Part shown: positions 2,086-64,000 of the stretch, one piece after another
Layout of the letters: every line of letters begins with the position of its first letter
How positions within the stretch are numbered: position 1 is the first letter of the stretch
NCBI GenBank assembly: GCA_000004985.1
Contig: GG738894.1
DNA from: Naegleria gruberi
Taxonomy: Eukaryota
Strand: one strand, 5' to 3'
DNA: 64,000 nucleotides
Program-made: the position numbers and the translations under genes
Notes under the pieces: generated by a model
Databases searched by the model: none
Told to the model about the DNA's origin: nothing
What the model saw: the letters and a program-made list of their open reading frames with translations, nothing else

Positions 2086-5000
2086 ATGCCTCAAAGTAGA
2101 ACAATTACACCAAATTTTCCCTCCATCAACATGTTCCTATTTCATCGAGAACCGTACTTTTTAGATTCGAGTGAGGATAAAAATCGTATTCAAATCAACA
2201 ACAAGAACAATAATAGGGATGATGGAGAAGCAAAAACAATATTAAGGATGAGAAGTTTGGATGAAACTGTGCGGGATGATGATACGCATTCTTCTTCAAT
2301 ACATCATCAAGAAGCCTTGGAACATGTTTTTGGTAAGACAAGAACATCTTCCGCTACAACGAGAACAGTATCACAAAATTCAAGGAATACTAATTATTTT
2401 AATGCTAATACAATAGCAAAAAGCGAGAATAACAACAACTACAAGAAAAACCTTATTAATCACCTGATAATATTATTATTAATTACACTCTTAGTTGTAC
2501 TTCCAACCTTTGTAGAGTGCCTACATCCATTCGCCACATACAATTGGAACAATGATGATGAGATTTGGTTTGCTCAGTCGGCACCATTTTCTGGCCCTAG
2601 TAGCACAATTGGGACAGGTAAGTAGTATCAACATGTAAATGTTCTATAGTGAGTACTTTAATTAGAATTGAGAAATGGAATATTAGCTGCTTTTAATGAA
2701 ATCAACTCTGTTGGAGGTATATTCGGAAAGAAGAAGCTGAGATTGATCAGTATGGACGATGGCTATGAACCACCCAATACAGTTCGCAACATTAATAATT
2801 TTCTGAATGGAAACAAGACAATATTTGGATTTATTGGAGTGGTAGGCTCACCCACTATTCTTGCAGCCTATGATTTGGTAGTGTCGTCTGGTCTTCCTCT
2901 GATTGGAAGTTACACAGGAGCTACATTTTTGAGACAGCCCTTTCATGCAAATTTTGTAAACATTAGACCATCATACTATGATGAAACAGCTGCAATTATG
3001 GATGTATTGATTGGAAAAAACATGGCGAGGAAAATATCAGTCCTTCATCAAGATGATCCTTTTGGAATTAATGGATATGAAGGAGTTAAACGTATACTTG
3101 ACCATATGGGAATTCCAATGTGTTCATCAGGAAGTTATCAAAGAAACACACTCAACGTTGAGGATGCATTCTACAAGATTGCAAAGTGTGATCCAGATGC
3201 TATTGTTGTAGTGGCACTGTATGCACCAGCAACAAAATTCATCAAAATGGTTACCAACTCGACCCTTTACCGAAAGGATATTTTATTTGCAGCAACCTCA
3301 ATAGCCAGCGATTTAATTGTAAAGGAGCTAGGCCCTGAAATTGCTCCAAGAGTTCTGTTTTCACAAGTTGCCCCTTCTCCAACAGATACATCCTCGACCC
3401 TTGTTAAATCTTTCATCACCGCAAGGAAATCAATAGATTCTAATTTTACACAAGGTACATTTATTGAAATAGAGGGATATATTGCTGGAAAAATGACGTA
3501 TCACTTGCTCCACAGAATAATTGGATACATGTCCCCCAGTAACATGCTGACTAATCTTTACTATTCACAAGAAGTTATGTTTGACAATTTGAAATTAGGA
3601 CCATTCTCTTCAGTGTCTGTCAAGGATCCTGTTTACCTTATTCAAACAAATTTTTCCACTCAATTTGATTGCAATCAAGGCTCAAAATCAGTTTGGAGGA
3701 CGAAAGCTGATTCTAACTTGAATTTCTATAATTATGCACCTCCATTTTCATGGTACACTTCTGGCACATGTATTTCAACCCCAGGCGATGTCATCAATCC
3801 AATTTTATTAGCACAACTTGTTTATAACAATCTAGGATCTTCTAATACCTATCTCACTAACGGAATTAAAGCCGCCTTATCCACTGCATATGTCCAGGGA
3901 AGACCTATACATCTACTAACTCGCACTTACTCAGATTTCCAATCTCTTATTTCCACCACTCAAGATCTCGTTGAAAACTACTATATTACTGCATTGGTTG
4001 GATCTTCTGGATTGGGAGAAGTTATTAGTTTAAATACTTCCTCTATTGATCTATTCAGAGAGATATTTAAAACATCCTTCCCACATATTCCTCTGATTGG
4101 AAGTGTAGTTGACAATCCGTCAATCATGTCAACAACTGGTTCGTTGTTTATCCCATCCATGGTAAACATTAGAAGTACAATCATTGAGGAAATTGGAACT
4201 TTGCTTCAACATGCATTCAAAAGAGGAGTTACCAGAATATCAATAGTGAACTGTCCTGCATACGTCCATATCAACAAAATTTTCAAACTTTTAATGTCAA
4301 AATTGCAACTAACAATTGAGAGTGAGCATGGATGCTCAGATACCATTCTTTTCGATAGCATCTCGATAAACCCACAAGTGGTTCTAGTAGCATGTGCATC
4401 TGCCATTCTCCCTGGAACTCTTTTAAAGTTGGATGCAAGTAGTAATCTTAGACAAGATGCATTGTTTTTTGTTTTGGAAGAGAAGAAAAAGCTAGTCTTG
4501 TCAAGCCTTGAGAGTGGACCTAAAGGTGTACAAAGACCTATCTTATATAGTTCTTCATTCCCAGATCCAAAAATCTCGGCCGTAACCATTGTTTCAAGAT
4601 TTAAATCAACTACACCGCCTCTAACAGATCTTTCTGGGTATTATTCTTCTGATTTGGCTCTTGAAGGATATTTTATTGGAGAGTTTGTTGGATCAATATT
4701 GGGATCAGTTGCAGATTCAGCACCCTCAATAACAGGTCAGGCAATTATTGACTTTATATACAAAAGTCAACAGATAGTGGTGAGAGACCAAAAGTATGGA
4801 TACTTTATTAGAGACAAGAAAAATTCATTGTGCAATATTGGGTCGAGAACAAGATTTCTATTCCAGATAAGAAATTGTTCAACCTCAATACTATCAACAA
4901 CAGGTTTCCAACAACAATCATGTTGTTTACAATCTGTTTTAGAGGATTCCAGTACCCTCAACTTTAGAAGACCAATGCAGTTCGTTAGATTCAAACCAGG

Positions 5001-7125
5001 AGACACTGAACAACTTACCATCGAAGCAATAGATGATTTTGCAAAAGGAGTAATATCTTTCATTAATGATATTAATACCATGGGGAAATATTCATTTGCC
5101 TTTCAATTTCTTACTCAAACTTTTAATGGATCTTCTGATATTCAAATGTTAGCTAACGATTTAACCTCTAAACAGCAAATATTTGGTGTTATCGCTCCAG
5201 ATGTAGATTATGACATTGAAATGTTTACGAACATTAGTTTACCAATTATCGGCCCCAAAACTGCTAACATGCAATACAGAAATTACAAAAAAAATGTAAT
5301 TAACATCTACCCTTCCTTAATAGATGAAATCTTCAATTTGGTTGAATTTTTCCTAAAATTTAGTGACGCAATTACTATTGTTTATGAGTCCTTGGATGTT
5401 AATAATTATGCTCAACCCCAGGTATTGAAAACTATCCAAAATATAATAACTAACAGACAACTTTCAAGAGTTTCCCTCACTTGTATGACTTGTGTCAGTG
5501 ATCAAGCAGGGTCAGTAATAATTATGGCAGAAACAGAAGAAATCATTCAGTTTATTAGAGCAAATCAGAAGATAATGAACAGAGTTGGTTTGATTTCAGA
5601 AGCATATGAAGAGCATGATGATCTTAAAGAGTTGTTGTCCCTTCATTCGAATGTTTACATGTCCACTATAGTATCCCTCACAACAGAAATGACGGGATTT
5701 GTGGAATCTGAATTCACAAAGCATTTTCAAGTTTCGTTTCCAAACGACGTGCCAACAATAGAGTCTATAGATGGTTTCGTTTCCTTTTTGTTTGTTGAAA
5801 AAGTATTTGAGTCATTCTTAGATAGAATACAACCAAGACAACAACAGGCTTTCATTGACAAGATATATAGTCTCTCTGTTTTAGATATTGGTGACATTAC
5901 TCTTGGAAAGTTCACCAATACCTGCAATCAAGGAACAAGAAGATTGTACGTTAGCAGATTTTCCCTTAGTAACACAAGTGAAGTCATAACAGTCACAGAA
6001 CCAAACAGTCTTTTCACAATTTCAACATGTGGGTATAACTTCCCTTCCCCTGCAGTCATGGATTATCTTTATTATATTCTAATTTCTATATTGGCTATAA
6101 TTTTTTTGATTGTAGCCATGGGAATATCAGGTTTATTAATTTACAGACAGTATAAGGCTAAAAAGTCACACCTTCATGCTCCAAAAGGAGGAGTCATTTC
6201 TTTTGCGTTTACTGATATTCAAAATTCTACTGTATTGTGGCAATACAATGAGAAAGCAATGAAATTAGCTCTTGCTATACATAACAAGATAGTTAGGGAT
6301 AATATTAAGAAATACAGAGGTTACGAAGTCAAAACTCAAGGGGATTCATTCTTTGTTGCTTTTAGAAAGATAGAAGATTGTATTAATTGGGCATTCTCTG
6401 TTCAAAGTGATTTATTGAAAGCAAATTGGCCATCTGATATTATTACACAGTATGATTGTAGACCAGAATTTGAGGAAGGAACAAAAGTTTTGATTTATTC
6501 TGGTTTGAGGGTAAGAATGGGGCTTCATTGTGGTCAAGCTGAATATATTTTTGATAAGACTGTGAAAAGACCAGATTACTTTGGCAACACCATTAACCAG
6601 ACTGCCAGAATTCAAGCTCTTGCAAGAGGAGGAGAAATATTATGTAGTGAGGCCATGTTACAAGAAAGCAAATATTTATTTAAAATTTCTGGCCCAAGTT
6701 TCGAGGAGGAATTGTCGCATCAATCCTTAAACATACCAAGAAGAAGCTCTGAATCCACATTGTCAAAGAAGCGTAGATCAGTTGTTCCTGGATCCAATCC
6801 AATCTATACAGCCGAAGATTTTGGATATTGCTCCCTAAAAGGTATTAAGGAGGAAGTCAGAGTCTTTACACTTAAAAATAATGATATGAAACTTAGAGTT
6901 TTTCCACCTATTGGAAGATACAAAAATATTGAGGAAACATCGAACAATACCTTGCGATCGATTGCTTCCGTTCCAACATTTGAAACATCAAGTATCAATG
7001 GAGATGATATCATTGTGCACATTCCTGATCAAGCATCAGACAACCAAAAGAGCAAACCTGAACGGTTGAACACTCAAGCGATTGAACTTCCAGAGATTAT
7101 GATTTCTGGTGTAGATAATAAATAA
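2086..7125 (+). CDS. Receptor-type class III nucleotidyl (adenylyl/guanylyl) cyclase. Two exons (2086..2617 and 2666..7125, intron ~2618..2665).
   Basis: Exon 1 ends GGT|GTAAGT and the acceptor is TTAG at 2664-2665, giving …STIGTG-E-LRNGILAAFNEINSVGGIFGKK in frame. Domain order is N-terminal cytosolic region, a TM (LINHLIILLLITLLVVL), about 1200 aa of ectodomain with two PBP type-I (ANF-receptor/LivJ-like) modules, a TM (ILISILAIIFLIVAMGISGLLIY), then the cyclase catalytic domain (FTDIQNST…KTQGDSFFVAF…GLRVRMGLHCGQAE…GNTINQTARIQ). Confidence 0.75.
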
Positions 7126-12162: not shown

Positions 12163-12403
12163 AGACGCTTTAAAATAAAAAATGAATAGAATGAGTCGGG
12201 CATATTTTCAAATGTGGAGGTGCGAAGGGTTGGGATGTCCTACTACTAATAATCATCAAGCTAGGACGGTGGTATCATCGTCGGGTGGTGAGAAGGATCA
12301 TGATTGGAGGCGCACCAATTCAATATTAAAATTATTTAATCTTTTTGATCGGAATAGTAGCAATAGTAGTGGTGGTTATAAATATTGTAAAAATAATTTT
12401 TCC

Positions 12404-13600
12404 ATGATGATGATAAGTTTTGGAGTGATGATCATGTTGTTAATGTCATTATTGAATAGTACGAGTTTTGTGAATGCTGCTGAAGTGCCATTATTATTGG
12501 GAAGTGGATCTTCACTTGTTGAAGAATTTCATAAAGAAGCAGCAAATTATTTTATTGGATACATGAGAAGAAGTGTCGATGTAATGTATGATGCCTCTGG
12601 ATCGGGGACTGGTGTGAAAAATTTATTTAATTCGAATGGAGTTTATTCATTTGCAGCAACTGATTATGGATTAAAGGCAGCTGACAGAAAAATTAATACA
12701 GATGCAAAAGTGTTGCCAATCATGACAACATATATTTCAATAATTGTATGTAGGATAGCGAAAGAAATTAATATTGAACATAATTAGAGTAATATTGAAG
12801 GATTGAAGGGTGGTTATTCAATTACCTTTTCCCAGGAGGCGCTTGTAGGAATATTTAATGGAACCATTTCCAGATGGAATGACCAAACATTGCAATTGTT
12901 GAATCCATCACTTGCACTCCCAAATACATCAATTTATGTGGTTGTTAGAAATGATTCAAGTGGCACTACTGACATGCTCACTACTGGATTATCATCATTT
13001 TCAAAGGAGTGGGCTTCAACATATGGATCGGGAACTTTAATCAAATGGTCATCCCTCTTATCGAACAGAATAATCTATGCAGAGGATGCCAAAGATGTTT
13101 CTTTCATCATTACTAGCACACCAAACACTATTGGGTACTCTACACCTACTACTTTTGAGCAGCATGCTCCAGCAACTATCAAAACAAAATTAGGAGCTTC
13201 TGTCACTCCCTCATCGAGCTATCTAAAAGGTGTAATAACAAGTGGAATATCATTTAATGAGAATTTTATGCATCCTTCTGTGGTTATAGATAGGCCAGAT
13301 ATTTACCCATTCGTTGGTGTTTCTTATATTGTCTATTTGTCATCCACAATGAATGATTGTGTAAAGGCTACTTATTTGGGCAAGCTTTTGGAATATTATA
13401 CTTCAGATAGAGCTACCAAGATTATTGAGGATGCCGCCTTTTCTTCACTCTTCATTGATGCATCTGTAAAGGAAAGATATATGGGATATTTGAAAAATTT
13501 CACATGTAATGGTAAACCTGTACTGAGTTCCAGTTCCATCACTCAATATTCGATAGCACTTTTAATTTTATTGATTATTCAATTATTATGTATTTTATAA
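12404..13600 (+). CDS. Secreted PstS/DING-like phosphate-binding protein (type II periplasmic-binding-protein fold). Two exons with a 42-nt phase-0 intron at ~12746..12787.
   Basis: Signal peptide MMMISFGVMIMLLMSLLNSTSFVNA. PstS motifs DASGSGTG and …GTISRWNDQTLQLLNP…IYVVVRNDSSGTTDMLT. Removing GTATGT…TTAG takes out the stop and restores …VLPIMTTYISII-SNIEGLKGGYSITFSQEALVGIFNGTISRWND. C-terminal hydrophobic tail (SIALLILLIIQLLCIL), which looks like a GPI signal. Confidence 0.7.
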
Positions 13601-13610
13601 GTTATATATT

Positions 13611-14759
13611 TTACAAAACCAAAGCAAATAATGCAACGATAACCATAATTAAGGAAACAAGATGCATACTCAATACATTTGCGCTATTAACTCTTGTATC
13701 GAAAGTGGTATATGTTTGTACATAATCCAAATAACTTGTAACATTTGTATAGATACCTCTATTTGAAACCGATCCTGCAGTTCCACATCCGTTAGGTCCA
13801 AAACTAACAATACCAAAAACAATATAATCATTTGTAGAATTAGGAGCTTTGTAAAATAATGGCCCTCCAGAATCACCTTGACAGCTAGTTATCATTAATT
13901 AATTATTGGAATTAATATTTTCAACTTAAATAATGAGGAATAAATACACCTACCTGTCATGTCCTTTTCCATCGCCAGCACAGATTTGTTTTGGTGATGA
14001 AGCATCCAAGTTAATAGCATTACATTTACTCATATCAACCACAGGTACAGTAACTTTCATCAAATCTGTTGGAAGTGGTTGAGTATCAACAGTTGTTCCC
14101 CATCCAGCAACAATAGATGAGAAACCAATAGGAATTGATCCAATTTCCAAATAGGCAGCCTTAGCTGTTTTACCGTCCAATGTCATTGCTGATTCCAATT
14201 CAAGAATAGCTATATCATTTACAACATTATTATTTGAATCACTATATTGAGGATGGACATGAATGTTCTTTATCTTAATATATTTACGTTGTACATCACT
14301 CACAGAATTTCCACCATATACAGCAATCCAAGGTAATGTATCAGGGGGACTGAAACAATGGGCAGCTGAGAGTAAATATTTGGAATTTATAATTGAAGCT
14401 CCACAAGTGTGACTGTAGCTTTTGGCGCTGATATCATCAGCCTGTTGGAGTGAGACAATGAATGGAAATTCGTTGGTGCTTGCCTTTTCACCATTGGACA
14501 CTTTAGAATCTCTCACTTTAAGTTGTTGAGCAGTTGATAATTTAGATATTAAGGCAACAATACTCAACAGAAGGAGGGCAAGAGTCCTCTTCCTTCCACT
14601 GTTACTACTTCCTCCGATCAACATTGTGTGAATTTTTATTGTTGTTGAAATAATTAAATTGGAAGTGTGAAGGACAAAACCAATCCAAAGATTACTGTGG
14701 AAGAGGAAATAGAGCGTTCTTTTAGGAGATAATTTGATCATTCTTTTATTATATTTCAC
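13611..14759 (-). CDS. Trypsin-like (S1) serine protease. Two exons with an intron at ~13885..13953. The start is probably the internal Met at ~14624.
   Basis: LSAAHC (His), DIAIL (Asp), GDSGGP (Ser) and C-terminal [10 protein letters not shown]. Exon 1 …[10 protein letters not shown] joins [11 protein letters not shown] through GTAGGT…CTAG. Signal peptide MLIGGSS…[19 protein letters not shown]-terminal hydrophobic tail ([16 protein letters not shown]). Confidence 0.75.
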
Positions 14760-14793: not shown

Positions 14794-17100
14794 TTAAAAG
14801 TCATATAATTCATTTTCCTTTTGAAGTTCTGTGAGTTTGAGCCACTTTTTGTACTCTGCTGTTTCCTCAAGTCTAGAAAAGGTATCAGATACATTCTTAA
14901 TGACTTCAAAGATGAGGATTTCTCTCAATTCAGAGTAAGGGATTGAGTTTGCAGTTGGTGTTTGCTCACAAACTTGTTTCTTCTCTTCAAACCATTTGTA
15001 AAATGCCTTTTTAGTAGAGTTTGGAAAATTGACCTCAAACTTGGAATAATTTCTCATATAGAGCTCTTCAATTTGGGCAGCCTGTTCGAAAGTTAAGAAT
15101 GAATCTGCAGAATTGACGAGGGAACTTGAACTAAATGTTCGTGAGGTTCTTGAATTGGATGTAGGCAATGAGTCAGTAGATGCTCCCATACTTGATTTCG
15201 ATCTATCATTACCTGAAGATGGGCTTTTCTTATTCTCCAATGATATTAACATTTCATATAACATTACATTTTCAATTGAAAATTCCTTCTTTGCAAACTT
15301 TCTCAATAATTTCATCAAATTCACATCTTCCAATCTGGATTCCAATGTTCTCTTTCCTTTTGGTTCATTGCCTCTGTTTGAAGAAAGTAATTTACTTATT
15401 TTTCTATAAATTTCAATAATCATTGCACTTCCACCAAGAATTAAATAACAAGTCAATGAAAATAGAACTGTCAATACTCCAATGGCAAATTGATTATTAT
15501 ACACTAACAGGGTGATAATTGTGAGTACGAGGAGTAAAAATATGAGTAACAAGTCTATCTTGATATAGAACGGATCATCAAAGAAAAAGTAGTAGTATAT
15601 TCCTTTCTTTTTGATCTTTCTTCGATTTCCAATCATATCCAATAGCAAGAATATTAAACCAATTACAATACATAGAATAATGACAGCACCAAGAGGTGCA
15701 TTTCTGAAATATCCCAAATAGGAAGTAAGGTAAACTTCTTTTTCTAGTATCATGAGAACCGAAGCTCCAAGAGGAATAAAAGGTACTGTTACACTTGTAA
15801 CTAATCCTAACCACTTCTTTCCCAAAAACTTGAAAAATTTGAAATGATCAGATTTTGAAATTATTGTAAACAAATTTCTCAGATAGAAATATCTCACAAC
15901 TGTTATAAAATACAGGAATACAGGATACATTACAACTGCATTGGCTATTCCATTATACAATCGAGTGCAATTGGCAGTAAATACCATAATCTGGAAAATG
16001 TTTCGCATAATAACAAAGAGTGGGCAAAGGTATGGAACAGCCAATCTAATTTTGATGGATTTAGTATTAAATGTCAATAACAGACCAATATAGTAGATAC
16101 ATAGAAAAAAAATTGCATAAACACCTTGGATTTCTTCATATTTAACAGGTTCAAAGGCACAGGTGGAGGATGAACATTCATATACTTCACTGTTCATGTA
16201 AGAAAGGGTGATATTGGAGATTCCAATACTTGAAATTGTTTCGTTTGTATACAATGTGATTTGAGGGTAACTGCTTTGAAGATATTTCACAAAATTATTA
16301 AATTCGAAACTAGAATTTGATAGAGAAATTTTTGATGACCTAAACAGACAATAATCGTGATTCAAATAACATGAAGTACGGTAAGAATCCCCTTTCACTT
16401 CTTCTCTGCACAATCTAATTAATGAATCACATGTTGTAGTGAAGTTGTTAAAATAATCAGTGACACATGAGATTTGGTTTTGATCTAGACTGTTGGAATA
16501 TGAAAAGAACAATGGTGCCAATCTCACAACATTTAAATCTTCAACCTGTAGGTATCTACCTAGCTTGTTATTTCCTCTAATCAACCTCAAAACCTTTGGC
16601 ATTTCTCTGTCAGTTGTTATGATAATTGGACCTTCATTTGATGACCAATAATCAACAAGAATACTTCCAAACACGCAATCAGAGTTGATTCTAACAGCTG
16701 AAAGAATGGAAATAGGTTTGATATCAGCATATGCAGAAGTTGAAATATTATAAATTTCTAATAATGTGTTAAAGGAACTTTCTAATATTTTCAATCGTTG
16801 GTCGGAAACTGAGTAAAAATCAGAATTTGGAGTAAATAGAATGATTCTCTTGTTTTCAAATAGTGATCTTGGTGTAGTAGTTGAATAACCTTTAAGAGCT
16901 ATTGCAATAATAGTTTCATTGGACGAAACTATCTGAATTGGTTGTTGACCATAAATTTCCTTCAATTGACCAATACTCGCTGTCTTTAACCCACAACTAC
17001 AAATCACACAGTGTAGTTGAACTAAACACAACACCAATGAAATCGTAAAGCTGATGTGCATGTTTTTTTGACTTTTCGTTTGGCAAATCTCACATGTCAC
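14794..17100 (-). CDS. Seven-TM protein with a large N-terminal ectodomain and a C-terminal RGS domain (7TM-RGS)
   Basis: Signal peptide, an ectodomain of about 300 aa, seven hydrophobic helices between residues ~330 and 560, then an RGS box (…LLRKFAKKEFSIENVMLYEML…FEQAAQIEELYMRNYSKFEVNF…). Confidence 0.65.
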   Translation of the reverse strand: MTCEICQTKSQKNMHISFTISLVLCLVQLHCVICSCGLKTASIGQLKEIYGQQPIQIVSSNETIIAIALKGYSTTTPRSLFENKRIILFTPNSDFYSVSDQRLKILESSFNTLLEIYNISTSAYADIKPISILSAVRINSDCVFGSILVDYWSSNEGPIIITTDREMPKVLRLIRGNNKLGRYLQVEDLNVVRLAPLFFSYSNSLDQNQISCVTDYFNNFTTTCDSLIRLCREEVKGDSYRTSCYLNHDYCLFRSSKISLSNSSFEFNNFVKYLQSSYPQITLYTNETISSIGISNITLSYMNSEVYECSSSTCAFEPVKYEEIQGVYAIFFLCIYYIGLLLTFNTKSIKIRLAVPYLCPLFVIMRNIFQIMVFTANCTRLYNGIANAVVMYPVFLYFITVVRYFYLRNLFTIISKSDHFKFFKFLGKKWLGLVTSVTVPFIPLGASVLMILEKEVYLTSYLGYFRNAPLGAVIILCIVIGLIFLLLDMIGNRRKIKKKGIYYYFFFDDPFYIKIDLLLIFLLLVLTIITLLVYNNQFAIGVLTVLFSLTCYLILGGSAMIIEIYRKISKLLSSNRGNEPKGKRTLESRLEDVNLMKLLRKFAKKEFSIENVMLYEMLISLENKKSPSSGNDRSKSSMGASTDSLPTSNSRTSRTFSSSSLVNSADSFLTFEQAAQIEELYMRNYSKFEVNFPNSTKKAFYKWFEEKKQVCEQTPTANSIPYSELREILIFEVIKNVSDTFSRLEETAEYKKWLKLTELQKENELYDF

Positions 17101-17371: not shown

Positions 17372-17420
17372 GGGGTGTAGCTCACATGGTAGAGCACTTC
17401 TTTAGCATGGAATCCACACA
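17372..17420 (+). pseudogene. Degenerate tRNA-Ala(AGC) fragment, 5' two-thirds only
   Basis: GGGGTGTAGCTCACATGGTAGAGCA matches the tRNA-Ala acceptor and D-arm (with the G3:U70-compatible 5' end). A weak anticodon arm with TTAGCAT loop (anticodon AGC) follows. There is no T-arm or 3' acceptor strand. Confidence 0.35.
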
Positions 17421-17468
17421 TGAGCCAAAGTCGGAAGAAAAAGAGTAAAAAACACTAATTTAAAAAAA

Positions 17469-18320
17469 ATGAGTAAACTTAACAGACAAGATTTTGAAAA
17501 TCATCAATTCATTAATTCGGAGGAAATATTCACTAACAATAATAATAATAATAATATAGAAGAGAAAGTAAAAAAGCATGTAAAACTCGAACAAGAAATA
17601 TTTTCAGATGATATTTGTTTTGAAATAATTTCAATGATTGATGATTCGTGGTTTATTTTAAATAATTGTACTTTAATTTCAAAACAATTCTTTAATGTGA
17701 TCAAGGAACGTTCAAAACTTGTTATTCAATTTAAAAAAAAATTTACAGAGAAACGAGTTGAAATATTAAAGAAAAGTCAATTTATGAATAGTATTGTTAA
17801 TCTTAAATTTTCAACAAATTTGTTTGACTATTTTGAAGAAGCAAAATTTATAAGTGAAATGAAAGAATTAACATCGCTTAATATTAATGGCAATGTAATT
17901 GGTGCAGAAGGAGCAAAATTCATCAGTGGAATGAAACAATTGACATCACTTAATATTTCTTACAATGTAATTGGTGATAAAGGAGCTAAATTGATAAGTG
18001 AAATGAAACAGTTAATATCAATTAATATTTCTTACAATAGAATTTGTGGTGAAGGAGCTAAATTCATAAGTGAAATGAAACAATTGACATCACTTAATAT
18101 TGCTAACAATTCAATTGGCGATACAGGAGCTAAATTCATCAGTGGAATGAAAGAATTAACATCACTTGATATATATAATAATAGAATTGGCAGAGAAGGA
18201 GCAAAATACATTAGTGAAATGAAACAATTGACATCACTTGATATTGGTGGCAATCAAATTGGTGATGAAGAAGTAAAATTGATAAGTGAAATGAAACAAT
18301 TGACATCACTAAGAAAATAA
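17469..18320 (+). CDS. F-box-like plus leucine-rich-repeat (RNI-type) protein
   Basis: N-terminal F-box-like FSDDICFEIISMIDDSWFILNNC. At least eight 24-aa repeats ISEMKQLTSLNISYNVIGDKGAKF (LxxLxLxxNxIGxxGAK). Confidence 0.6.
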   Translation: MSKLNRQDFENHQFINSEEIFTNNNNNNNIEEKVKKHVKLEQEIFSDDICFEIISMIDDSWFILNNCTLISKQFFNVIKERSKLVIQFKKKFTEKRVEILKKSQFMNSIVNLKFSTNLFDYFEEAKFISEMKELTSLNINGNVIGAEGAKFISGMKQLTSLNISYNVIGDKGAKLISEMKQLISINISYNRICGEGAKFISEMKQLTSLNIANNSIGDTGAKFISGMKELTSLDIYNNRIGREGAKYISEMKQLTSLDIGGNQIGDEEVKLISEMKQLTSLRK

Positions 18321-28454: not shown

Positions 28455-28655
28455 ATTAGTTTGAATTGTAGTGAAATAATTGCCAAATATTCAAGATTTA
28501 GCTTATTAGAAACTTTATTCTAAAACGCACTAAACTAAAAGGAATTGCATATTAAATCGCTCAATACGCTCGTCGTTCTACCGTTGGCCCCGTTGTTAAC
28601 TTGGGAAGTAAAGGTCTATTTCCACTCTCGTCAATTTAACATTCTTACAAAAAAA

Positions 28656-29720
28656 ATGCTGAAATATTTAGCTGTCATTTGTCTTGTATTTTTTAGTTGT
28701 CATCTTGTGGCTGCAAAATTGCAAGTTACACCAAATAATGAACGTGGCATCAAGGTAGCAAATGGTCAAACTGCTGGTGAACACGAATTTCCTTTCATTG
28801 TTTCCATTCAAAAACAACTTTCGTCCGGAGCTTTCGAACATCTCTGTACAGGAAGTATCCTATCGAGTACATTTGTATTGACAGCTGCTCACTGTTTAGA
28901 CTCATCTACAACACTTGTTGTTGTTTACGGAACTTATGACAATACATGTTCAGATAATTGTAAATACATCAAAGTCAAAAATCAAATTGCTCATCCTTCC
29001 TATCAGAAAGGAACAGAAAGAAATGACATTGCTGTATTTGAACTTGAAAGTGCATTGCCAATTGATGATTCAACTGTTAGTACAGTTTCTATTGATGCAA
29101 ATTCAATTGCAATTCATGATGAGGAAAGTGATTCTTCTAGATTAGTTTTAATTTCTGGTTGGGGAGCTTTGAATTCTAACTTGGATTATCCTAAAAAGTT
29201 ACAAAAGGCATCTGTTCCAATTGTTAAAATGTCATATTGTAATAATTTGAATTTGGGTGGAGTTGATATTGAACAAATTTGTGCAGGAGCTGGAAATGGT
29301 AAGTTTTTACAATTTTAGAAAGTGAATTTCAATAATTTTCATAGGAAGGGATGCTTGCAGTGGAGACAGTGGTGGTCCTTTATTTAGAAAAATATCTTCC
29401 TCTTCAAAATATACTCAATTTGGTGTTGTAAGTATTGAAATACTTTACAAAAAATTATTGAAATATTGTAAAATATTGTAAAATAGGTTTCGACTGGTTA
29501 TGAAACTTGTGGAGCAACTGTTAGTAGAGGACTCTATTCGAATACCACTTTCTATCTATCATTCATTCAAACATACGTCCCAGGAGTTTCTGTTAATCAA
29601 GATTCGGATACTGTCAATCCAGGAGATATTGGAACTGGTAATACTGGAACAGGTTCTCAAATTGTATATACCTCACTATCATTTATTGTACTTTTATTCA
29701 TAATTTCACTAATTTTCTAA
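28656..29720 (+). CDS. Trypsin-like (S1) serine protease. Three exons (~28656..29298, 29345..29427, 29487..29720).
   Basis: Signal peptide MLKYLAVICLVFFSCHLVAA. TAAHC (His), NDIAVF (Asp). Exon 2 encodes [14 protein letters not shown] (Ser) after GTAAGT…ATAG. Exon 3 encodes STGYETCGATVSRGLYSNTTFYLSFIQTYV after a second GTAAGT…AATAG intron. C-terminal hydrophobic tail (SLSFIVLLFIISLIF). Confidence 0.8.
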
Positions 29721-29753: not shown

Positions 29754-30916
29754 TTAAAGAGAATTCAAAATTTCTTCAGCAGTTTTTTCCACCTCTTGTC
29801 TATTCAAAGTATTAACAATGTAAACTCCCTTCACTTGTTTATGTGAATCGGCTTTAATAAATCTACTCATGAGAAAATCCTTCACTTGATTGACTTGTTC
29901 TGAGCTTTTCACAAATTCTGGAAAGAGAGAGGAAAAGACAACTTTTTGTCTGTGAATGATTTCTTCCAAAATGTCAAGTTTTGTAAAGATTAGAAAGATT
30001 GGAACAGTGGTTGATGAGATAACGTCCTTGAAACATTTCAAACTCTCATTAGCTCTGTTGAAATTCATTTTCCGATATACATATTCGAATAGAGGTAATA
30101 AACTTACCTATTTTCATTCTGATCTTCATAACAATATTGAAAGCATTCACTTAATGAAACCATGAAAAAGATAGCATCTGGAAGAGGATTTGCACTAATT
30201 ACATGTTTCCATTTCTTTCTCTCATTTCTTTGTCCTCCTGTATCTGTTCTAAATTCGTAAAATATTGAATTACCCAATTAGTTAATAACATACATGGTCA
30301 ATTTGAAATTTTTAAATTCAGTTGATCCACAATTTACAATTCCGACTGTCTTTTTCTGTAATCTTGCCAGATCCTCAATTGTTGGCTCATAATTATTCGA
30401 AAGTAGAATTCTCTCACTATTCTTAAAGAAATATTGATGATTTCCTGCGAGATGAAGGAGAGGATACAGTTCTGGATTGTCAATCACATCACAAACTGCT
30501 GGATTTTTCAATAATTTGATAAAATTCTTGCAATTCTTCAACAACACCTCCAAATGTCTCCTTTCAAAATGACTGTCAACATAATTTTCCACTAGGTGAG
30601 CTAATTGCTTGACAATATTTTCATCATCACCTGTAATATTCCTTCTAACCTGCGCATTTGTTGTAATATTCACCAAATTTTGAAGAACACTATATTGAAT
30701 ATGTTCGGAATGAATTTTCAAATTCTTATCAACAACAACTTGATTGGAAATTAATTGTCGTGCAAATGATGATTTGCCACATTCACCAGTTCCCAGAAAT
30801 ACAAACGACTTGTTGATGAATGAGCACGATGGAACAATTCCAGTAAAGAAGGTGAAGGGAGGAGAGGGCTTGTTCTTCATTTTGTTTTTTTTTGTATAAT
30901 TGTAAGTGGGCGGCAA
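29754..30916 (-). CDS. Divergent heterotrimeric G-protein alpha-subunit-like protein. Three exons (30294..30916, 30108..30248, 29754..30054).
   Basis: P-loop FLGTGECGKSS (compare GAGESGKST). Switch II/G3 TDTGGQRNERKKW after a GTATGT…TTTAG intron. G4 FTKLD and C-terminal NRANESLKCFKDVISSTTVPIFLIFTKLDILEEII (compare NRMHESLKLF…ILFLNKKDLFEEKI) after a GTAAGT…AACAG intron. No N-terminal MGC. Confidence 0.7.
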
Positions 30917-56965: not shown

Positions 56966-57129
56966 ATTTACAACCTAGATTAAAAACTAAATTATAAAAC
57001 AAATAAAGCTGAGTAGGGAGCTTTGTGTAAAATAAGAGCCAACGATTGTTATTTACAAAATAATTTATTTTCTTTTACATCTGTTCCTGTATCAGTATTT
57101 ATTTACCTTTTGATTAGTGTTGAATCGAT

Positions 57130-57220
57130 GGTGAGTTGGTCGAGTGGTCTAAGACGACACGTTAAGGTATGATTAATACCGTGTTCCGCAAGGGCGTGGG
57201 TTCAAATCCCACACTCATCA
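57130..57220 (+). tRNA. tRNA-Leu(AAG) with an 11-nt intron (approximate coordinates)
   Basis: Type II tRNA. Acceptor GGTGAGT/ACTCATC with one G-U pair, and discriminator A. D-arm GTC-GAGTGGTCTAA-GAC. Anticodon stem ACACG/CGTGT with loop TTAAGG-[TATGATTAATA]-C, the intron sitting after position 37. Long variable arm. T-arm GTGGG-TTCAAAT-CCCAC. Confidence 0.7.
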
Positions 57221-57422
57221 GTTTTTAATTTAATGATCAAAATAAAATTTTATCTTCATTGCCATCAAAAATCATTTTAGTACTTTGTCAATCTTATTTC
57301 CTCTCACACCATTATTGTAGCGCGGAAGCAAGGTAATCCATCGAAAATCAATGGTGAGGTTGAACACGTGTTCAGATCATCAAACAAATATCAAGAGCTC
57401 GGAAAATTGCGATATAAAAAAA

Positions 57423-58393: not shown

Positions 58394-58467
58394 GCCTTCC
58401 TAGCTCAGTTGGCAGTAGCGCTGTCCTAGTAAGACAGAGGTCTTGGGTTCGATTCCCAAGGGAGGCA
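58394..58467 (+). tRNA. tRNA-Thr(AGU) (approximate coordinates)
   Basis: Acceptor GCCTTCC/GGGAGGC with one G-U pair, and discriminator A. Anticodon stem CTGTC/GACAG with loop CTAGTAA (U33, AGT, A37). T-arm TTGGG-TTCGATT-CCCAA. The D-stem has one mismatch. Confidence 0.55.
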
Positions 58468-61909: not shown

Positions 61910-64000
61910 NNNNNNNNNNNNNNNNNNNNNNNNNNNNNNNNNNNNNNNNNNNNNNNNNNNNNNNNNNNNNNNNNNNNNNNNNNNNNNNNNNNNNNNNNNN
62001 NNNNNNNNNNNNNNNNNNNNNNNNNNNNNNNNNNNNNNNNNNNNNNNNNNNNNNNNNNNNNNNNNNNNNNNNNNNNNNNNNNNNNNNNNNNNNNNNNNNN
62101 NNNNNNNNNNNNNNNNNNNNNNNNNNNNNNNNNNNNNNNNNNNNNNNNNNNNNNNNNNNNNNNNNNNNNNNNNNNNNNNNNNNNNNNNNNNNNNNNNNNN
62201 NNNNNNNNNNNNNNNNNNNNNNNNNNNNNNNNNNNNNNNNNNNNNNNNNNNNNNNNNNNNNNNNNNNNNNNNNNNNNNNNNNNNNNNNNNNNNNNNNNNN
62301 NNNNNNNNNNNNNNNNNNNNNNNNNNNNNNNNNNNNNNNNNNNNNNNNNNNNNNNNNNNNNNNNNNNNNNNNNNNNNNNNNNNNNNNNNNNNNNNNNNNN
62401 NNNNNNNNNNNNNNNNNNNNNNNNNNNNNNNNNNNNNNNNNNNNNNNNNNNNNNNNNNNNNNNNNNNNNNNNNNNNNNNNNNNNNNNNNNNNNNNNNNNN
62501 NNNNNNNNNNNNNNNNNNNNNNNNNNNNNNNNNNNNNNNNNNNNNNNNNNNNNNNNNNNNNNNNNNNNNNNNNNNNNNNNNNNNNNNNNNNNNNNNNNNN
62601 NNNNNNNNNNNNNNNNNNNNNNNNNNNNNNNNNNNNNNNNNNNNNNNNNNNNNNNNNNNNNNNNNNNNNNNNNNNNNNNNNNNNNNNNNNNNNNNNNNNN
62701 NNNNNNNNNNNNNNNNNNNNNNNNNNNNNNNNNNNNNNNNNNNNNNNNNNNNNNNNNNNNNNNNNNNNNNNNNNNNNNNNNNNNNNNNNNNNNNNNNNNN
62801 NNNNNNNNNNNNNNNNNNNNNNNNNNNNNNNNNNNNNNNNNNNNNNNNNNNNNNNNNNNNNNNNNNNNNNNNNNNNNNNNNNNNNNNNNNNNNNNNNNNN
62901 NNNNNNNNNNNNNNNNNNNNNNNNNNNNNNNNNNNNNNNNNNNNNNNNNNNNNNNNNNNNNNNNNNNNNNNNNNNNNNNNNNNNNNNNNNNNNNNNNNNN
63001 NNNNNNNNNNNNNNNNNNNNNNNNNNNNNNNNNNNNNNNNNNNNNNNNNNNNNNNNNNNNNNNNNNNNNNNNNNNNNNNNNNNNNNNNNNNNNNNNNNNN
63101 NNNNNNNNNNNNNNNNNNNNNNNNNNNNNNNNNNNNNNNNNNNNNNNNNNNNNNNNNNNNNNNNNNNNNNNNNNNNNNNNNNNNNNNNNNNNNNNNNNNN
63201 NNNNNNNNNNNNNNNNNNNNNNNNNNNNNNNNNNNNNNNNNNNNNNNNNNNNNNNNNNNNNNNNNNNNNNNNNNNNNNNNNNNNNNNNNNNNNNNNNNNN
63301 NNNNNNNNNNNNNNNNNNNNNNNNNNNNNNNNNNNNNNNNNNNNNNNNNNNNNNNNNNNNNNNNNNNNNNNNNNNNNNNNNNNNNNNNNNNNNNNNNNNN
63401 NNNNNNNNNNNNNNNNNNNNNNNNNNNNNNNNNNNNNNNNNNNNNNNNNNNNNNNNNNNNNNNNNNNNNNNNNNNNNNNNNNNNNNNNNNNNNNNNNNNN
63501 NNNNNNNNNNNNNNNNNNNNNNNNNNNNNNNNNNNNNNNNNNNNNNNNNNNNNNNNNNNNNNNNNNNNNNNNNNNNNNNNNNNNNNNNNNNNNNNNNNNN
63601 NNNNNNNNNNNNNNNNNNNNNNNNNNNNNNNNNNNNNNNNNNNNNNNNNNNNNNNNNNNNNNNNNNNNNNNNNNNNNNNNNNNNNNNNNNNNNNNNNNNN
63701 NNNNNNNNNNNNNNNNNNNNNNNNNNNNNNNNNNNNNNNNNNNNNNNNNNNNNNNNNNNNNNNNNNNNNNNNNNNNNNNNNNNNNNNNNNNNNNNNNNNN
63801 NNNNNNNNNNNNNNNNNNNNNNNNNNNNNNNNNNNNNNNNNNNNNNNNNNNNNNNNNNNNNNNNNNNNNNNNNNNNNNNNNNNNNNNNNNNNNNNNNNNN
63901 NNNNNNNNNNNNNNNNNNNNNNNNNNNNNNNNNNNNNNNNNNNNNNNNNNNNNNNNNNNNNNNNNNNNNNNNNNNNNNNNNNNNNNNNNNNNNNNNNNNN
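61910..64000. other. Assembly gap (2091 N)
   Basis: Run of N to the window end. Confidence 1.

What the first reader, a model, noticed from the sequence alone, without database searches (positions are those of the whole stretch)
14794..17100. 7TM-RGS protein with a large N-terminal ectodomain
A 7-TM receptor-like core fused directly to an RGS GAP domain occurs in plants (AtRGS1-type) and a few protists. This one also has a ~300-aa extracellular domain. It could act as a ligand-regulated GAP for the G-alpha encoded 13 kb away.
Basis: partly seen in the sequence, partly recalled or inferred. Interest (0 to 1): 0.55.

Follow-up and report, generated by a model that had tools for sequence, protein, structure and literature searches.

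The report
Naegleria 7TM-RGS receptor with flytrap-like ectodomain
This is a Naegleria gruberi gene for a membrane receptor that carries its own G-protein "off switch" (an RGS domain), a kind of protein already described in Naegleria, but its outer domain looks like a bacterial nutrient-binding "Venus flytrap", which the papers I could read do not mention.

Summary
The ORF at 14794-17100(-) has its real start at the ATG at 17061. It encodes a 755-aa protein identical to an unannotated "predicted protein" of Naegleria gruberi. The organism is a heterolobosean, not an amoebozoan.

The protein has four parts:
- a signal peptide;
- a ~286-aa ectodomain;
- seven TM helices with N-out/C-in topology;
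- a C-terminal RGS domain.

The RGS call fails on this sequence alone. Pfam gives no hit, and only 16.9 bits (cut-off 23.9) once a 40-aa Ser/Thr-rich insert is removed. Family evidence secures it:
- 251 relatives were found;
- 30 of 42 members hit Pfam RGS;
- the family consensus scores 36.4 bits;
- the family profile hits 35 solved RGS domains (best E 9e-9);
- the residues RGS4 uses to contact G-alpha are nearly invariant.

7TM-RGS proteins are already published for Naegleria: 28 in N. fowleri, with GAP activity shown for three. This is therefore a new variant of a known kind. A G-alpha gene does lie ~13 kb away, but nothing supports a functional pairing with it.

The parts
14794..17061 (-). 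Complete single-exon CDS (755 aa plus stop at 14794-14796). The listed ORF continues upstream to a GTG at 17100, but the ATG at 17061 is the start of the public gene model.
   Evidence: 100% identity and 100% coverage to the NCBI N. gruberi predicted protein P0001
16999..17061 (-). Predicted signal peptide, aa 1-21 (MHISFTISLVLCLVQLHCVIC)
   Evidence: Hydropathy peak of 2.24 at aa 3-21. No K/R/D/E in the segment. This is inferred; no dedicated signal-peptide predictor was available.
16141..16998 (-). Ectodomain, aa 22-307. It is a divergent two-lobed alpha/beta domain with a type-II periplasmic-binding-protein (Venus-flytrap) fold. A disulfide-rich helical part and a juxtamembrane C-x4-C motif (C296, C301) follow it.
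   Evidence: - AF2 domain model: pLDDT 79.3, pTM 0.79.
- Foldseek of the full-length model also picks Thi5 and iGluSnFR.
- 2 of 28 family ectodomains weakly hit Pfam NMT1 (best E 3.4e-5).
- There is no sequence-level hit for this protein itself.
15418..16140 (-). Seven-transmembrane core, aa 308-548, with a GPCR fold. Family-conserved motifs:
- PSIK(I/R)RL..PY (ICL1/TM2)
- R390..YLRNL (cytoplasmic end of TM3)
- NR(K/R).IK.KG....FDDPFY (ICL3/TM6, D496 invariant)
- GG (G543/G544, TM7)
   Evidence: - Hydropathy.
- AF2 helices with pLDDT ~90.
- Positive-inside counts.
- Conserved columns.
- No Pfam 7TM family hit, even for the family consensus.
14797..15369 (-). Cytoplasmic RGS domain, aa 565-755. 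It carries the G-alpha-contact residues S595, E597, N598 (FSIEN), N678 (EVN) and D726, T727, R730 (SDTFSR).
   Evidence: - Pfam RGS on this sequence: E 0.0086, 16.9 bits, only after removing the insert.
- 30 of 42 family members hit Pfam RGS.
- The family consensus scores 36.4 bits, above the 23.9 cut-off.
- The family profile hits 35 solved RGS domains, best RGS17 at E 9.3e-9.
- Residue conservation is 92-100% across about 135 relatives.
- AF2 pLDDT is ~90 outside the insert.
15106..15225 (-). 40-aa Ser/Thr-rich (50% S+T) disordered insert, aa 613-652. It sits in the loop between RGS helices alpha4 and alpha5, away from the G-alpha-binding face. It is the reason the Pfam RGS model misses this protein.
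   Evidence: - Absent from the Willaertia homologue in the pairwise alignment.
- pLDDT below 50 at aa 617-650.
- Placement relative to RGS4.
- Composition.
- Similar S-rich inserts lie between the same conserved RGS motifs in P0008 and P0010.
29754..30916 (-). Neighbouring multi-exon G-alpha gene (context only; it is not shown to belong to the system). The P-loop reads GTGECGKSS, switch I RLQKKTVGI and switch II DTGGQRNERKKW.
   Evidence: Pfam G-alpha E 2.5e-15. ORF pieces. Best solved relative is N. fowleri G-alpha7, 6ne6, E 8e-5.

Best explanation
The gene encodes a Naegleria gruberi member of the heterolobosean 7TM-RGS family, a receptor-like GTPase-accelerating protein.

Shown by computation:
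- It has a cleavable-looking signal peptide.
- It has a ~286-aa extracellular domain with a divergent type-II periplasmic-binding-protein (Venus-flytrap) fold.
- It has a GPCR-fold 7TM core with N-out/C-in topology.
- It has a cytoplasmic RGS domain that keeps every residue RGS4 uses to grip the G-alpha switch regions.

Inferred, by analogy with the N. fowleri 7TM RGS2-4 domains (which are GAPs) and with Arabidopsis AtRGS1:
- At the plasma membrane the RGS domain accelerates GTP hydrolysis on one or more of the many Naegleria G-alpha subunits. Some of these self-activate, so the RGS domain holds them off.
- Occupancy of the flytrap ectodomain by a small extracellular molecule is relayed through the Cys-containing stalk and the 7TM bundle. 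This changes the reach, orientation or membrane residence of the RGS domain.
- The Ser/Thr-rich loop in the RGS domain is a plausible phosphorylation site for that regulation.

The ligand and the partner G-alpha are unknown.
For: - Identity and organism.
- Topology.
- RGS domain.
- Catalytic-face residues: E597 138/138, N598 135/138, N678 133/135, D726 121/132, R730 128/132 across relatives; mapping onto RGS4.
- Family size: 251 representatives at E<=1e-3, 131 at E<=1e-10; 129 of the top 150 carry both 7TM and RGS.
- Origins: N. gruberi, N. lovaniensis, Willaertia magna and metagenome contigs.
- More distant members carry REJ/EGF + GPS + 7TM + RGS. This is the type described by Bosch et al. 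2022, who showed GAP activity of three N. fowleri 7TM-RGS RGS domains and self-activating G-alphas (PMC9283941).
- Ectodomain fold. The ectodomain is shared by at least 54 of the top 150 family representatives.
Against: - No biochemical data exist for this protein.
- On its own sequence the RGS match is below Pfam's threshold.
- Ligand binding and any ligand-to-GAP coupling are pure inference. Even for AtRGS1 and the N. fowleri proteins, how extracellular cues alter GAP activity is unresolved (PMC9283941 discussion).
- No close orthologue of this paralogue (>50% identity) was found. The nearest relatives are 28-31% identical, so it is a fast-evolving lineage-specific copy.
Confidence: 0.7

Rival explanations
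1. It is a constitutive membrane-anchored GAP. The ectodomain would be a degenerate PBP relic used for folding, dimerisation or adhesion, not for binding a small ligand. GAP activity would be controlled only by expression, trafficking or phosphorylation of the Ser/Thr-rich loop.
For: - The ectodomain is highly diverged, at 11-27% identity among relatives.
- It has no detectable sequence similarity to any ligand-binding PBP for this protein.
- Only four ectodomain columns are 90% or more conserved, and two of them are Cys.
- The S/T-rich insert is disordered.
Against: - The two-lobed fold is retained across at least 54 family clusters.
- It carries conserved non-Cys motifs (DC..GN.F...D..I.....F....R..R ... 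DF....L.P). That argues for selection on more than a scaffold.
Confidence: 0.25
2. It is a dual-function receptor. The 7TM core would also act as a classical GPCR (an exchange factor) for a slow-exchanging G-alpha, with the tethered RGS domain sharpening or terminating the same signal (kinetic scaffolding).
For: - The 7TM core has a true GPCR fold.
- There is an invariant Arg at the cytoplasmic end of TM3 (R390 in R..YLRNL) and a conserved basic ICL3. These are positions GPCRs use for G-protein coupling (general knowledge).
- Naegleria has both slow-exchanging and self-activating G-alphas, and both types interact with 7TM RGS proteins (PMC9283941).
Against: - No 7TM-RGS protein has been shown to have GEF activity.
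- There is no sequence similarity to any GPCR family with known coupling.
- The conserved motifs may serve structural roles or position the RGS domain.
Confidence: 0.12
3. The RGS domain is a non-catalytic G-alpha-binding or scaffolding module, as in some RGS-homology proteins. The protein would then be an effector or anchor rather than a GAP.
For: - The single-sequence RGS score is sub-threshold.
- There is a large insert within the domain.
- Some RGS domains have lost GAP activity (stated in PMC3971589).
Against: - All canonical contact residues, including the Asn equivalent to RGS4 N128, are present and nearly invariant in the family.
- The insert lies in the alpha4-alpha5 loop, opposite the G-alpha face (plus knowledge of the RGS4-G-alpha-i1 structure).
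- Three tested 7TM RGS domains of N. fowleri are GAPs (PMC9283941); they were not placed in this family here.
Confidence: 0.08
4. One reading: the protein is the dedicated, ligand-regulated GAP for the G-alpha encoded 13 kb away, the two forming a genomic module.
For: A G-alpha gene is indeed present at 29754-30916(-).
Against: - At least four unrelated genes lie between them.
- Eukaryotic genes are not organised in operons.
- Chance proximity is expected for several of the >200 RGS genes given ~44 G-alphas (PMC3971589, PMC8584482).
- This G-alpha has Gln at the catalytic-Arg position and Val at the Thr that docks into the RGS pocket, so it is a poor candidate for a canonical RGS substrate.
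- N. fowleri RGS/G-alpha pairings are promiscuous.
Confidence: 0.04

Closest known systems
Naegleria fowleri 7TM RGS proteins (Bosch, Jeck & Siderovski 2022, J Biol Chem 298:102167; PMC9283941)
   Same: - Same genus and the same architecture: 7TM with a C-terminal RGS domain, in a large expanded family.
- More distant members of the family found here carry the GPS/EGF/REJ ectodomains that paper describes.
- The isolated RGS domains of Nf 7TM RGS2-4 are GAPs for Nf G-alpha2/3/5/7.
   Different: - The ectodomains described there are EGF-like repeats, lectin domains and GPS motifs. This protein and at least 54 related clusters instead have a PBP-II/Venus-flytrap-like ectodomain and no GPS.
- This protein has a 40-aa S/T-rich insert in the RGS domain and escapes Pfam RGS detection.
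- It has not been tested biochemically.
- I did not establish which, if any, of the 28 N. fowleri proteins share this ectodomain.
Arabidopsis AtRGS1 (plant 7TM-RGS)
   Same: 7TM plus a cytoplasmic C-terminal RGS domain. It is a GAP acting on a self-activating G-alpha, and it is regulated by phosphorylation-dependent endocytosis (PMC3386157, PMC8584482).
   Different: - AtRGS1 has no large ectodomain (from my own knowledge).
- Sequence relatedness of the two 7TM cores was not tested here.
- AtRGS1 is a single-copy plant gene, whereas this belongs to a hugely expanded protist family.
Class C GPCRs (mGluR, CaSR, GABA-B, TAS1R)
   Same: - The modular logic is the same: Venus-flytrap ectodomain, Cys-containing stalk, 7TM.
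   Different: - The class C flytrap is a type-I PBP (LIVBP-like), whereas this one matches type-II PBPs.
- The class C output is nucleotide exchange, whereas here the output is a tethered GAP.
- There is no sequence similarity (5-11% identity; no Pfam 7tm_3 hit).
GPR158/GPR179-RGS7-G-beta5 complexes (animals)
   Different: In animals the RGS is recruited in trans. Here it is fused in cis. The ectodomains are unrelated.
PBP-II sensor domains (iGluR/plant GLR ligand-binding domains, bacterial BvgS/EvgS, Thi5/NMT1/SsuA family)
   Same: They share the fold class of the ectodomain. A weak NMT1 sequence signal appears in two relatives.
   Different: They are coupled to ion channels, histidine kinases or ABC transporters, not to a 7TM-RGS. 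The sequence identity is too low to infer ligand class.

Membership tests
RGS domain (Pfam PF00615) | Profile-HMM match above the curated threshold | tested here: inconclusive
   - This protein alone gives no hit on the full length and 16.9 bits (cut-off 23.9) after deleting the insert.
- 30 of 42 relatives hit RGS.
- The family consensus scores 36.4 bits.
- The family profile hits 35 solved RGS domains, best E 9.3e-9.
- Homology is therefore established transitively.
RGS domain (Pfam PF00615) | G-alpha switch-contact residues (RGS4 S85, E87, N88, N128, D163, R167; Tesmer et al. 1997, from memory) | tested here: met
They are 92-100% conserved in about 135 relatives.
RGS domain (Pfam PF00615) | GTPase-accelerating activity on a G-alpha | not testable with these tools
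   It has only been shown for three N. fowleri 7TM RGS domains (PMC9283941).
7TM-RGS receptor-GAPs (AtRGS1 / Naegleria 7TM RGS class) | Seven membrane spans with a cytoplasmic C-terminal RGS domain | tested here: met
   - Seven hydropathy peaks.
- Seven AF2 helices with pLDDT ~90.
- K+R is 13 in the inside loops and 1 in the outside loops.
- TMHMM and DeepTMHMM were not available.
7TM-RGS receptor-GAPs (AtRGS1 / Naegleria 7TM RGS class) | Sequence homology of the 7TM core to other Naegleria 7TM-RGS proteins | tested here: met
   - The profile search finds 251 relatives.
- 129 of the top 150 match both the TM and RGS HMMs.
- These include GPS-containing members and UniRef 'RGS domain-containing protein' entries of N. 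gruberi and N. lovaniensis.
- Homology to AtRGS1 itself was not tested.
GPCR fold | Structural superposition on solved GPCR 7TM bundles | tested here: met
Class C GPCR (Pfam 7tm_3) | Sequence-profile match to the class C 7TM domain and a type-I PBP (ANF_receptor) flytrap | tested here: not met
   - There is no Pfam hit for the protein or for the TM and ectodomain family consensus, even at E<=10.
- The ectodomain matches type-II, not type-I, PBPs.
- It works like class C in layout but is not a member.
Adhesion-type 7TM (GAIN/GPS) | GPS motif immediately before TM1 | tested here: not met
   There is no GPS hit in this protein. GPS is present only in distant family members P0141 and P0147.
Type-II periplasmic binding protein fold (Venus flytrap) | Two alpha/beta lobes superposable on solved PBP-II proteins | tested here: met
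   - AF2 domain model: pLDDT 79.3, pTM 0.79.
- Foldseek finds Thi5 with probability 0.75-0.96.
- The scores are moderate and rest on a predicted model.
Type-II periplasmic binding protein fold (Venus flytrap) | Sequence-profile match to a PBP family; ligand binding in the inter-lobe cleft | tested here: inconclusive
   - This protein has no match.
- 2 of 28 relatives match NMT1 (best E 3.4e-5) and 1 of 28 matches NMT1_3.
- Ligand binding is not testable here.

The most novel reading that the evidence does not exclude
Heteroloboseans have independently assembled a 'class-C-like' receptor in which a type-II Venus-flytrap ectodomain senses a small extracellular metabolite. The 7TM bundle would relay this not to nucleotide exchange but to a tethered RGS GAP acting on self-activating G-alphas. 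This would be a whole subfamily (at least 54 sequence clusters) of nutrient- or chemical-gated 'off-switch' receptors. Because the ectodomain is a soluble, expressible binding module, it would offer the first tractable route to a ligand for a 7TM-RGS protein.
Probability: 0.35. Interest if true: 0.65.

Novelty: new variant of a known kind. Interest (0 to 1): 0.4.

Why it matters
How extracellular cues control 7TM-RGS proteins is unresolved, and so is whether these proteins are receptors at all. This holds both for plants (AtRGS1) and for Naegleria (stated in PMC9283941).

A subfamily whose ectodomain is a recognisable small-molecule-binding fold would make the question directly testable. One could express the ectodomain, screen metabolites, and then ask whether the ligand changes GAP output.

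The finding also shows that Pfam-based censuses of RGS and 7TM-RGS proteins in Naegleria miss members such as this one. The RGS score is sub-threshold because of an insert, and the ectodomain and 7TM core are invisible to Pfam.

For the pathogen N. fowleri, related receptors are potential drug or chemotaxis targets.

The basic architecture is nevertheless already known in this genus, so the result refines existing knowledge and does not overturn it.

Tried and rejected
- Pfam on the full protein gave no RGS hit. The hit only appeared after removing the insert, and stayed below threshold.
- A word-indexed homologue search with the ectodomain alone returned nothing, not even the self-match. That negative is weak.
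- The same tool with the 42-member alignment returned only the query itself and was unproductive.
- The sequence profile of the ectodomain against PDB sequences gave only noise.
- The family consensus for the ectodomain and TM core against Pfam gave nothing.
- hhalign of the ectodomain profile against the PstS-like PBP protein encoded next door (12803-13600) showed no relationship (probability 0.05).
- Foldseek against AFDB50 was not available. I therefore could not look for the same architecture in other eukaryotes or compare with an AtRGS1 model.
- The Anantharaman et al. 2011 paper on G-protein domain architectures could not be read. Prior mention of this ectodomain there cannot be excluded.
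- A tRNA-like string upstream of the gene (~17385-17440) was not supported by ARAGORN or Rfam.
- The idea that the neighbouring G-alpha is the partner was considered and rejected. The reasons are set out in the fifth rival explanation.
Full report
**1. What is at the coordinates**

The minus strand carries one uninterrupted ORF at 14794-17100, 768 aa counted from a GTG. The first ATG is at 17061. It opens a 755-aa product that is 100% identical over its full length to the NCBI/UniRef entry 'predicted protein [Naegleria gruberi]'.

The window is therefore N. gruberi nuclear DNA (about 34% GC). The gene is a single exon.

**2. Topology**

- Kyte-Doolittle hydropathy shows an N-terminal hydrophobic segment at aa 3-21. 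It also shows seven further peaks between aa 313 and 548.
- An AlphaFold2 model was built on a 42-member family alignment (mean pLDDT 78.2, pTM 0.70). It places seven long helices at aa 308-548 with pLDDT around 90.
- Lys+Arg counts are 3, 4 and 6 in the three loops predicted to be cytoplasmic. They are 0, 1 and 0 in the loops predicted to be outside.
- This fits the positive-inside rule for an N-out/C-in protein. That orientation puts the C-terminal domain in the cytoplasm.
- The ~286-aa N-terminal domain carries 6 N-x-S/T sequons and 9 cysteines, as expected for an exposed domain.
- No dedicated TM or signal-peptide predictor was available, so the signal peptide is an inference.

**3. The RGS domain**

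On the single sequence that criterion is nearly met:
- Pfam finds nothing on the full protein.
- It also finds nothing on the last 208 residues.

The cause is a 40-aa disordered insert at aa 613-652. It is 50% Ser/Thr, has pLDDT below 50, and is absent from the Willaertia homologue. With the insert removed, Pfam RGS appears at E 0.0086 and 16.9 bits, still below the 23.9-bit cut-off.

Family information settles the matter:
- A profile of this protein plus its Willaertia magna homologue was searched against 1.84 billion representative proteins. It found 251 relatives at E<=1e-3 and 131 at E<=1e-10.
- 30 of 42 full-length relatives hit Pfam RGS, best E 2.1e-9.
- The family consensus of the C-terminal domain scores 36.4 bits.
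- The family profile hits 35 solved RGS domains, with RGS17 at E 9.3e-9.

The residues that RGS4 uses to bind the G-alpha-i1 switch regions are S85, E87, N88, N128, D163 and R167 (Tesmer et al. 1997, from memory). They correspond here to S595, E597, N598, N678, D726 and R730. These positions are 92-100% conserved across about 135 relatives.

The insert falls in the alpha4-alpha5 loop, opposite the G-alpha-binding face. Two other family members (P0008, P0010) carry Ser-rich inserts between the same conserved RGS motifs.

The domain is therefore a bona fide RGS domain, and it looks GAP-competent.

**4. The 7TM core**

- Neither this protein nor the family consensus matches any Pfam 7TM family.
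- All the listed hits are GPCR 7TM bundles, apart from GPCR-like folds such as the de novo designs and LYCHOS.
- Class A receptors score about 12-13.9 and adhesion receptors about 12.8-12.9.
- A de novo designed GPCR-like fold also scores 15.8. Identities are 5-11%.
- I therefore take 'GPCR fold' as established and 'class C-like' only as a soft resemblance.

Family-invariant positions lie on the cytoplasmic side:
- R390 in R..YLRNL, at the end of TM3;
- D496 in FDDPFY, after a basic ICL3;
- G543 in TM7.

**5. The ectodomain**

- Sequence searches find nothing for this protein.
- The domain is nevertheless conserved in the family. It has recognisable motifs (DC..GN.F...D..I.....F....R..R ... 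DF....L.P). An HMM of it matches 54 of the top 150 family representatives.
- Those hits include bacterial amino-acid binding proteins, plant GLR3.4 and GluR0 ligand-binding domains, and PhnD/PtxB. They also include SsuA/TauA, Thi5, LysR effector domains and the BvgS/EvgS flytrap sensors.
- Foldseek of the full-length model independently picked Thi5 and iGluSnFR.
- Two of 28 family ectodomains weakly match Pfam NMT1/THI5 (best E 3.4e-5).

The scores are moderate and rest on a predicted model. I rate the PBP-II assignment at about 0.8. Ligand binding is inferred, not shown.

**6. Placement in what is known**

- Bosch, Jeck & Siderovski (2022; PMC9283941) reported 28 7TM RGS proteins in N. fowleri. 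Some have EGF, lectin and GPS ectodomains.
- They showed that the RGS domains of three of them are GAPs for particular N. fowleri G-alphas, some of which self-activate.
- de Mendoza et al. (2014; PMC3971589) counted 229 RGS proteins in N. gruberi and noted 7TM-RGS architectures in many bikonts.
- More distant members of the family found here carry REJ/EGF + GPS + 7TM + RGS. This links the present protein to the published class.
- Named relatives come from N. gruberi, N. lovaniensis and Willaertia magna.
- What I did not find in the accessible literature is a PBP/Venus-flytrap-like ectodomain on a 7TM-RGS protein (the Bosch text).
- The Anantharaman et al. 2011 survey could not be read.

My verdict is a new variant of a known kind.

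**7. Mechanism**

Shown by computation: the domain order, the topology, the GPCR fold, the intact RGS catalytic face and the PBP-II-like ectodomain.

Inferred by analogy with the N. fowleri proteins and with AtRGS1:
- The RGS domain keeps one or more G-alphas in the GDP state at the membrane.
- Ligand-induced closure of the flytrap is transmitted through the Cys-containing stalk (C296, C301) and the 7TM bundle.
- This alters GAP access or receptor residence at the membrane.
- The Ser/Thr-rich loop is a candidate phospho-switch.

Alternatives are a constitutive GAP with a non-sensing ectodomain, a dual GEF/GAP receptor, and a non-catalytic RGS scaffold. They are listed as rivals with their tests.

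**8. The G-alpha 13 kb away**

It exists: exons lie within 29754-30916(-), with Pfam G-alpha E 2.5e-15. There is no reason to pair it with this receptor.
- The intervening genes include LRR, EF-2-like, F-box and trypsin-like genes.
- There are about 44 G-alpha genes (PMC8584482) and more than 200 RGS genes (PMC3971589) in a ~41-Mb genome (size from my own knowledge). Several chance neighbours of this kind are therefore expected.
- This G-alpha aligns best to N. fowleri G-alpha7 (6ne6, E 8e-5).
- In that alignment it has Gln at the catalytic-Arg position of switch I. It has Val where G-alpha-i1 has Thr182, the residue that inserts into the RGS pocket.
- It is thus an atypical subunit and not an obvious RGS substrate.

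**9. Verdict**

The architecture is real but already known for this genus.

The added value is threefold:
(a) This member is invisible to standard RGS annotation.
(b) A sizeable subfamily carries a flytrap-like ectodomain, which suggests small-molecule sensing and offers a practical handle for ligand discovery.
(c) The proposed pairing with the nearby G-alpha is unsupported.

Interest is moderate (0.4).

Noticed in passing
window 2668-7125 (+): A 1485-aa ORF combines two periplasmic-binding-protein-type domains with an adenylate/guanylate cyclase catalytic domain. The PBP-type hits are Peripla_BP_6/ANF_receptor at aa 1-275 and Peripla_BP_A-cyclase at aa 767-1090. This is a receptor-type cyclase with flytrap sensors. 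It is a second example in this window of PBP-like sensing modules fused to signalling outputs.
   Followed up: no
window 29754-30916 (-): The multi-exon G-alpha gene has an atypical P-loop (GTGECGKSS) and switch I (RLQKKTVGI). Gln replaces the catalytic Arg and Val replaces the RGS-docking Thr. It may be GTPase-deficient or RGS-insensitive.
   Followed up: partly
window 12182-13600 (+): Two adjacent ORFs (12182-12787 and 12803-13600) together match the PstS-like PBP_like_2 phosphate-binding family and end in a hydrophobic tail. This is probably one gene with an intron, encoding a membrane- or GPI-anchored phosphate-binding protein. It is unrelated to the receptor's ectodomain by hhalign.
   Followed up: partly
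window 13611-14759 (-) and 28545-29318 (+): There are two trypsin-like serine protease genes in the window. The first is split into two ORFs, presumably by an intron, and lies immediately downstream of the receptor gene.
   Followed up: no
P0002 vs P0003 (Willaertia magna): Two database proteins share an identical 7TM+RGS part but have different N-termini. P0002 has an F-box/LRR-like N-terminus. P0003 has the PBP-like ectodomain with a signal peptide. P0002 is likely an erroneous or alternative gene model.
   Followed up: partly
window 17469-18320 (+): This divergently oriented neighbour encodes an LRR protein made of near-identical 24-aa repeats (…MKQLTSLNI…G.EGAKFIS…), with an Asn-rich stretch near its N-terminus.
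   Followed up: no
window ~17385-17440: A stretch upstream of the receptor gene resembles the 5' half of a tRNA (…GTAGCTCACATGGTAGAGCAC… on the + strand). Neither ARAGORN nor Rfam calls anything there. It may be a tRNA-derived relic or chance.
   Followed up: yes
window 57129-57221 (+) and 58394-58467 (+): ARAGORN reports a tRNA of undetermined identity (93 nt; possibly intron-containing) and a tRNA-Thr(AGT) about 1.2 kb apart.
   Followed up: no
window 62001-64000: The composition profile shows GC = 0 for the last 2 kb. The window appears to end in padding or Ns, so the real sequence stops near 62 kb.
   Followed up: no
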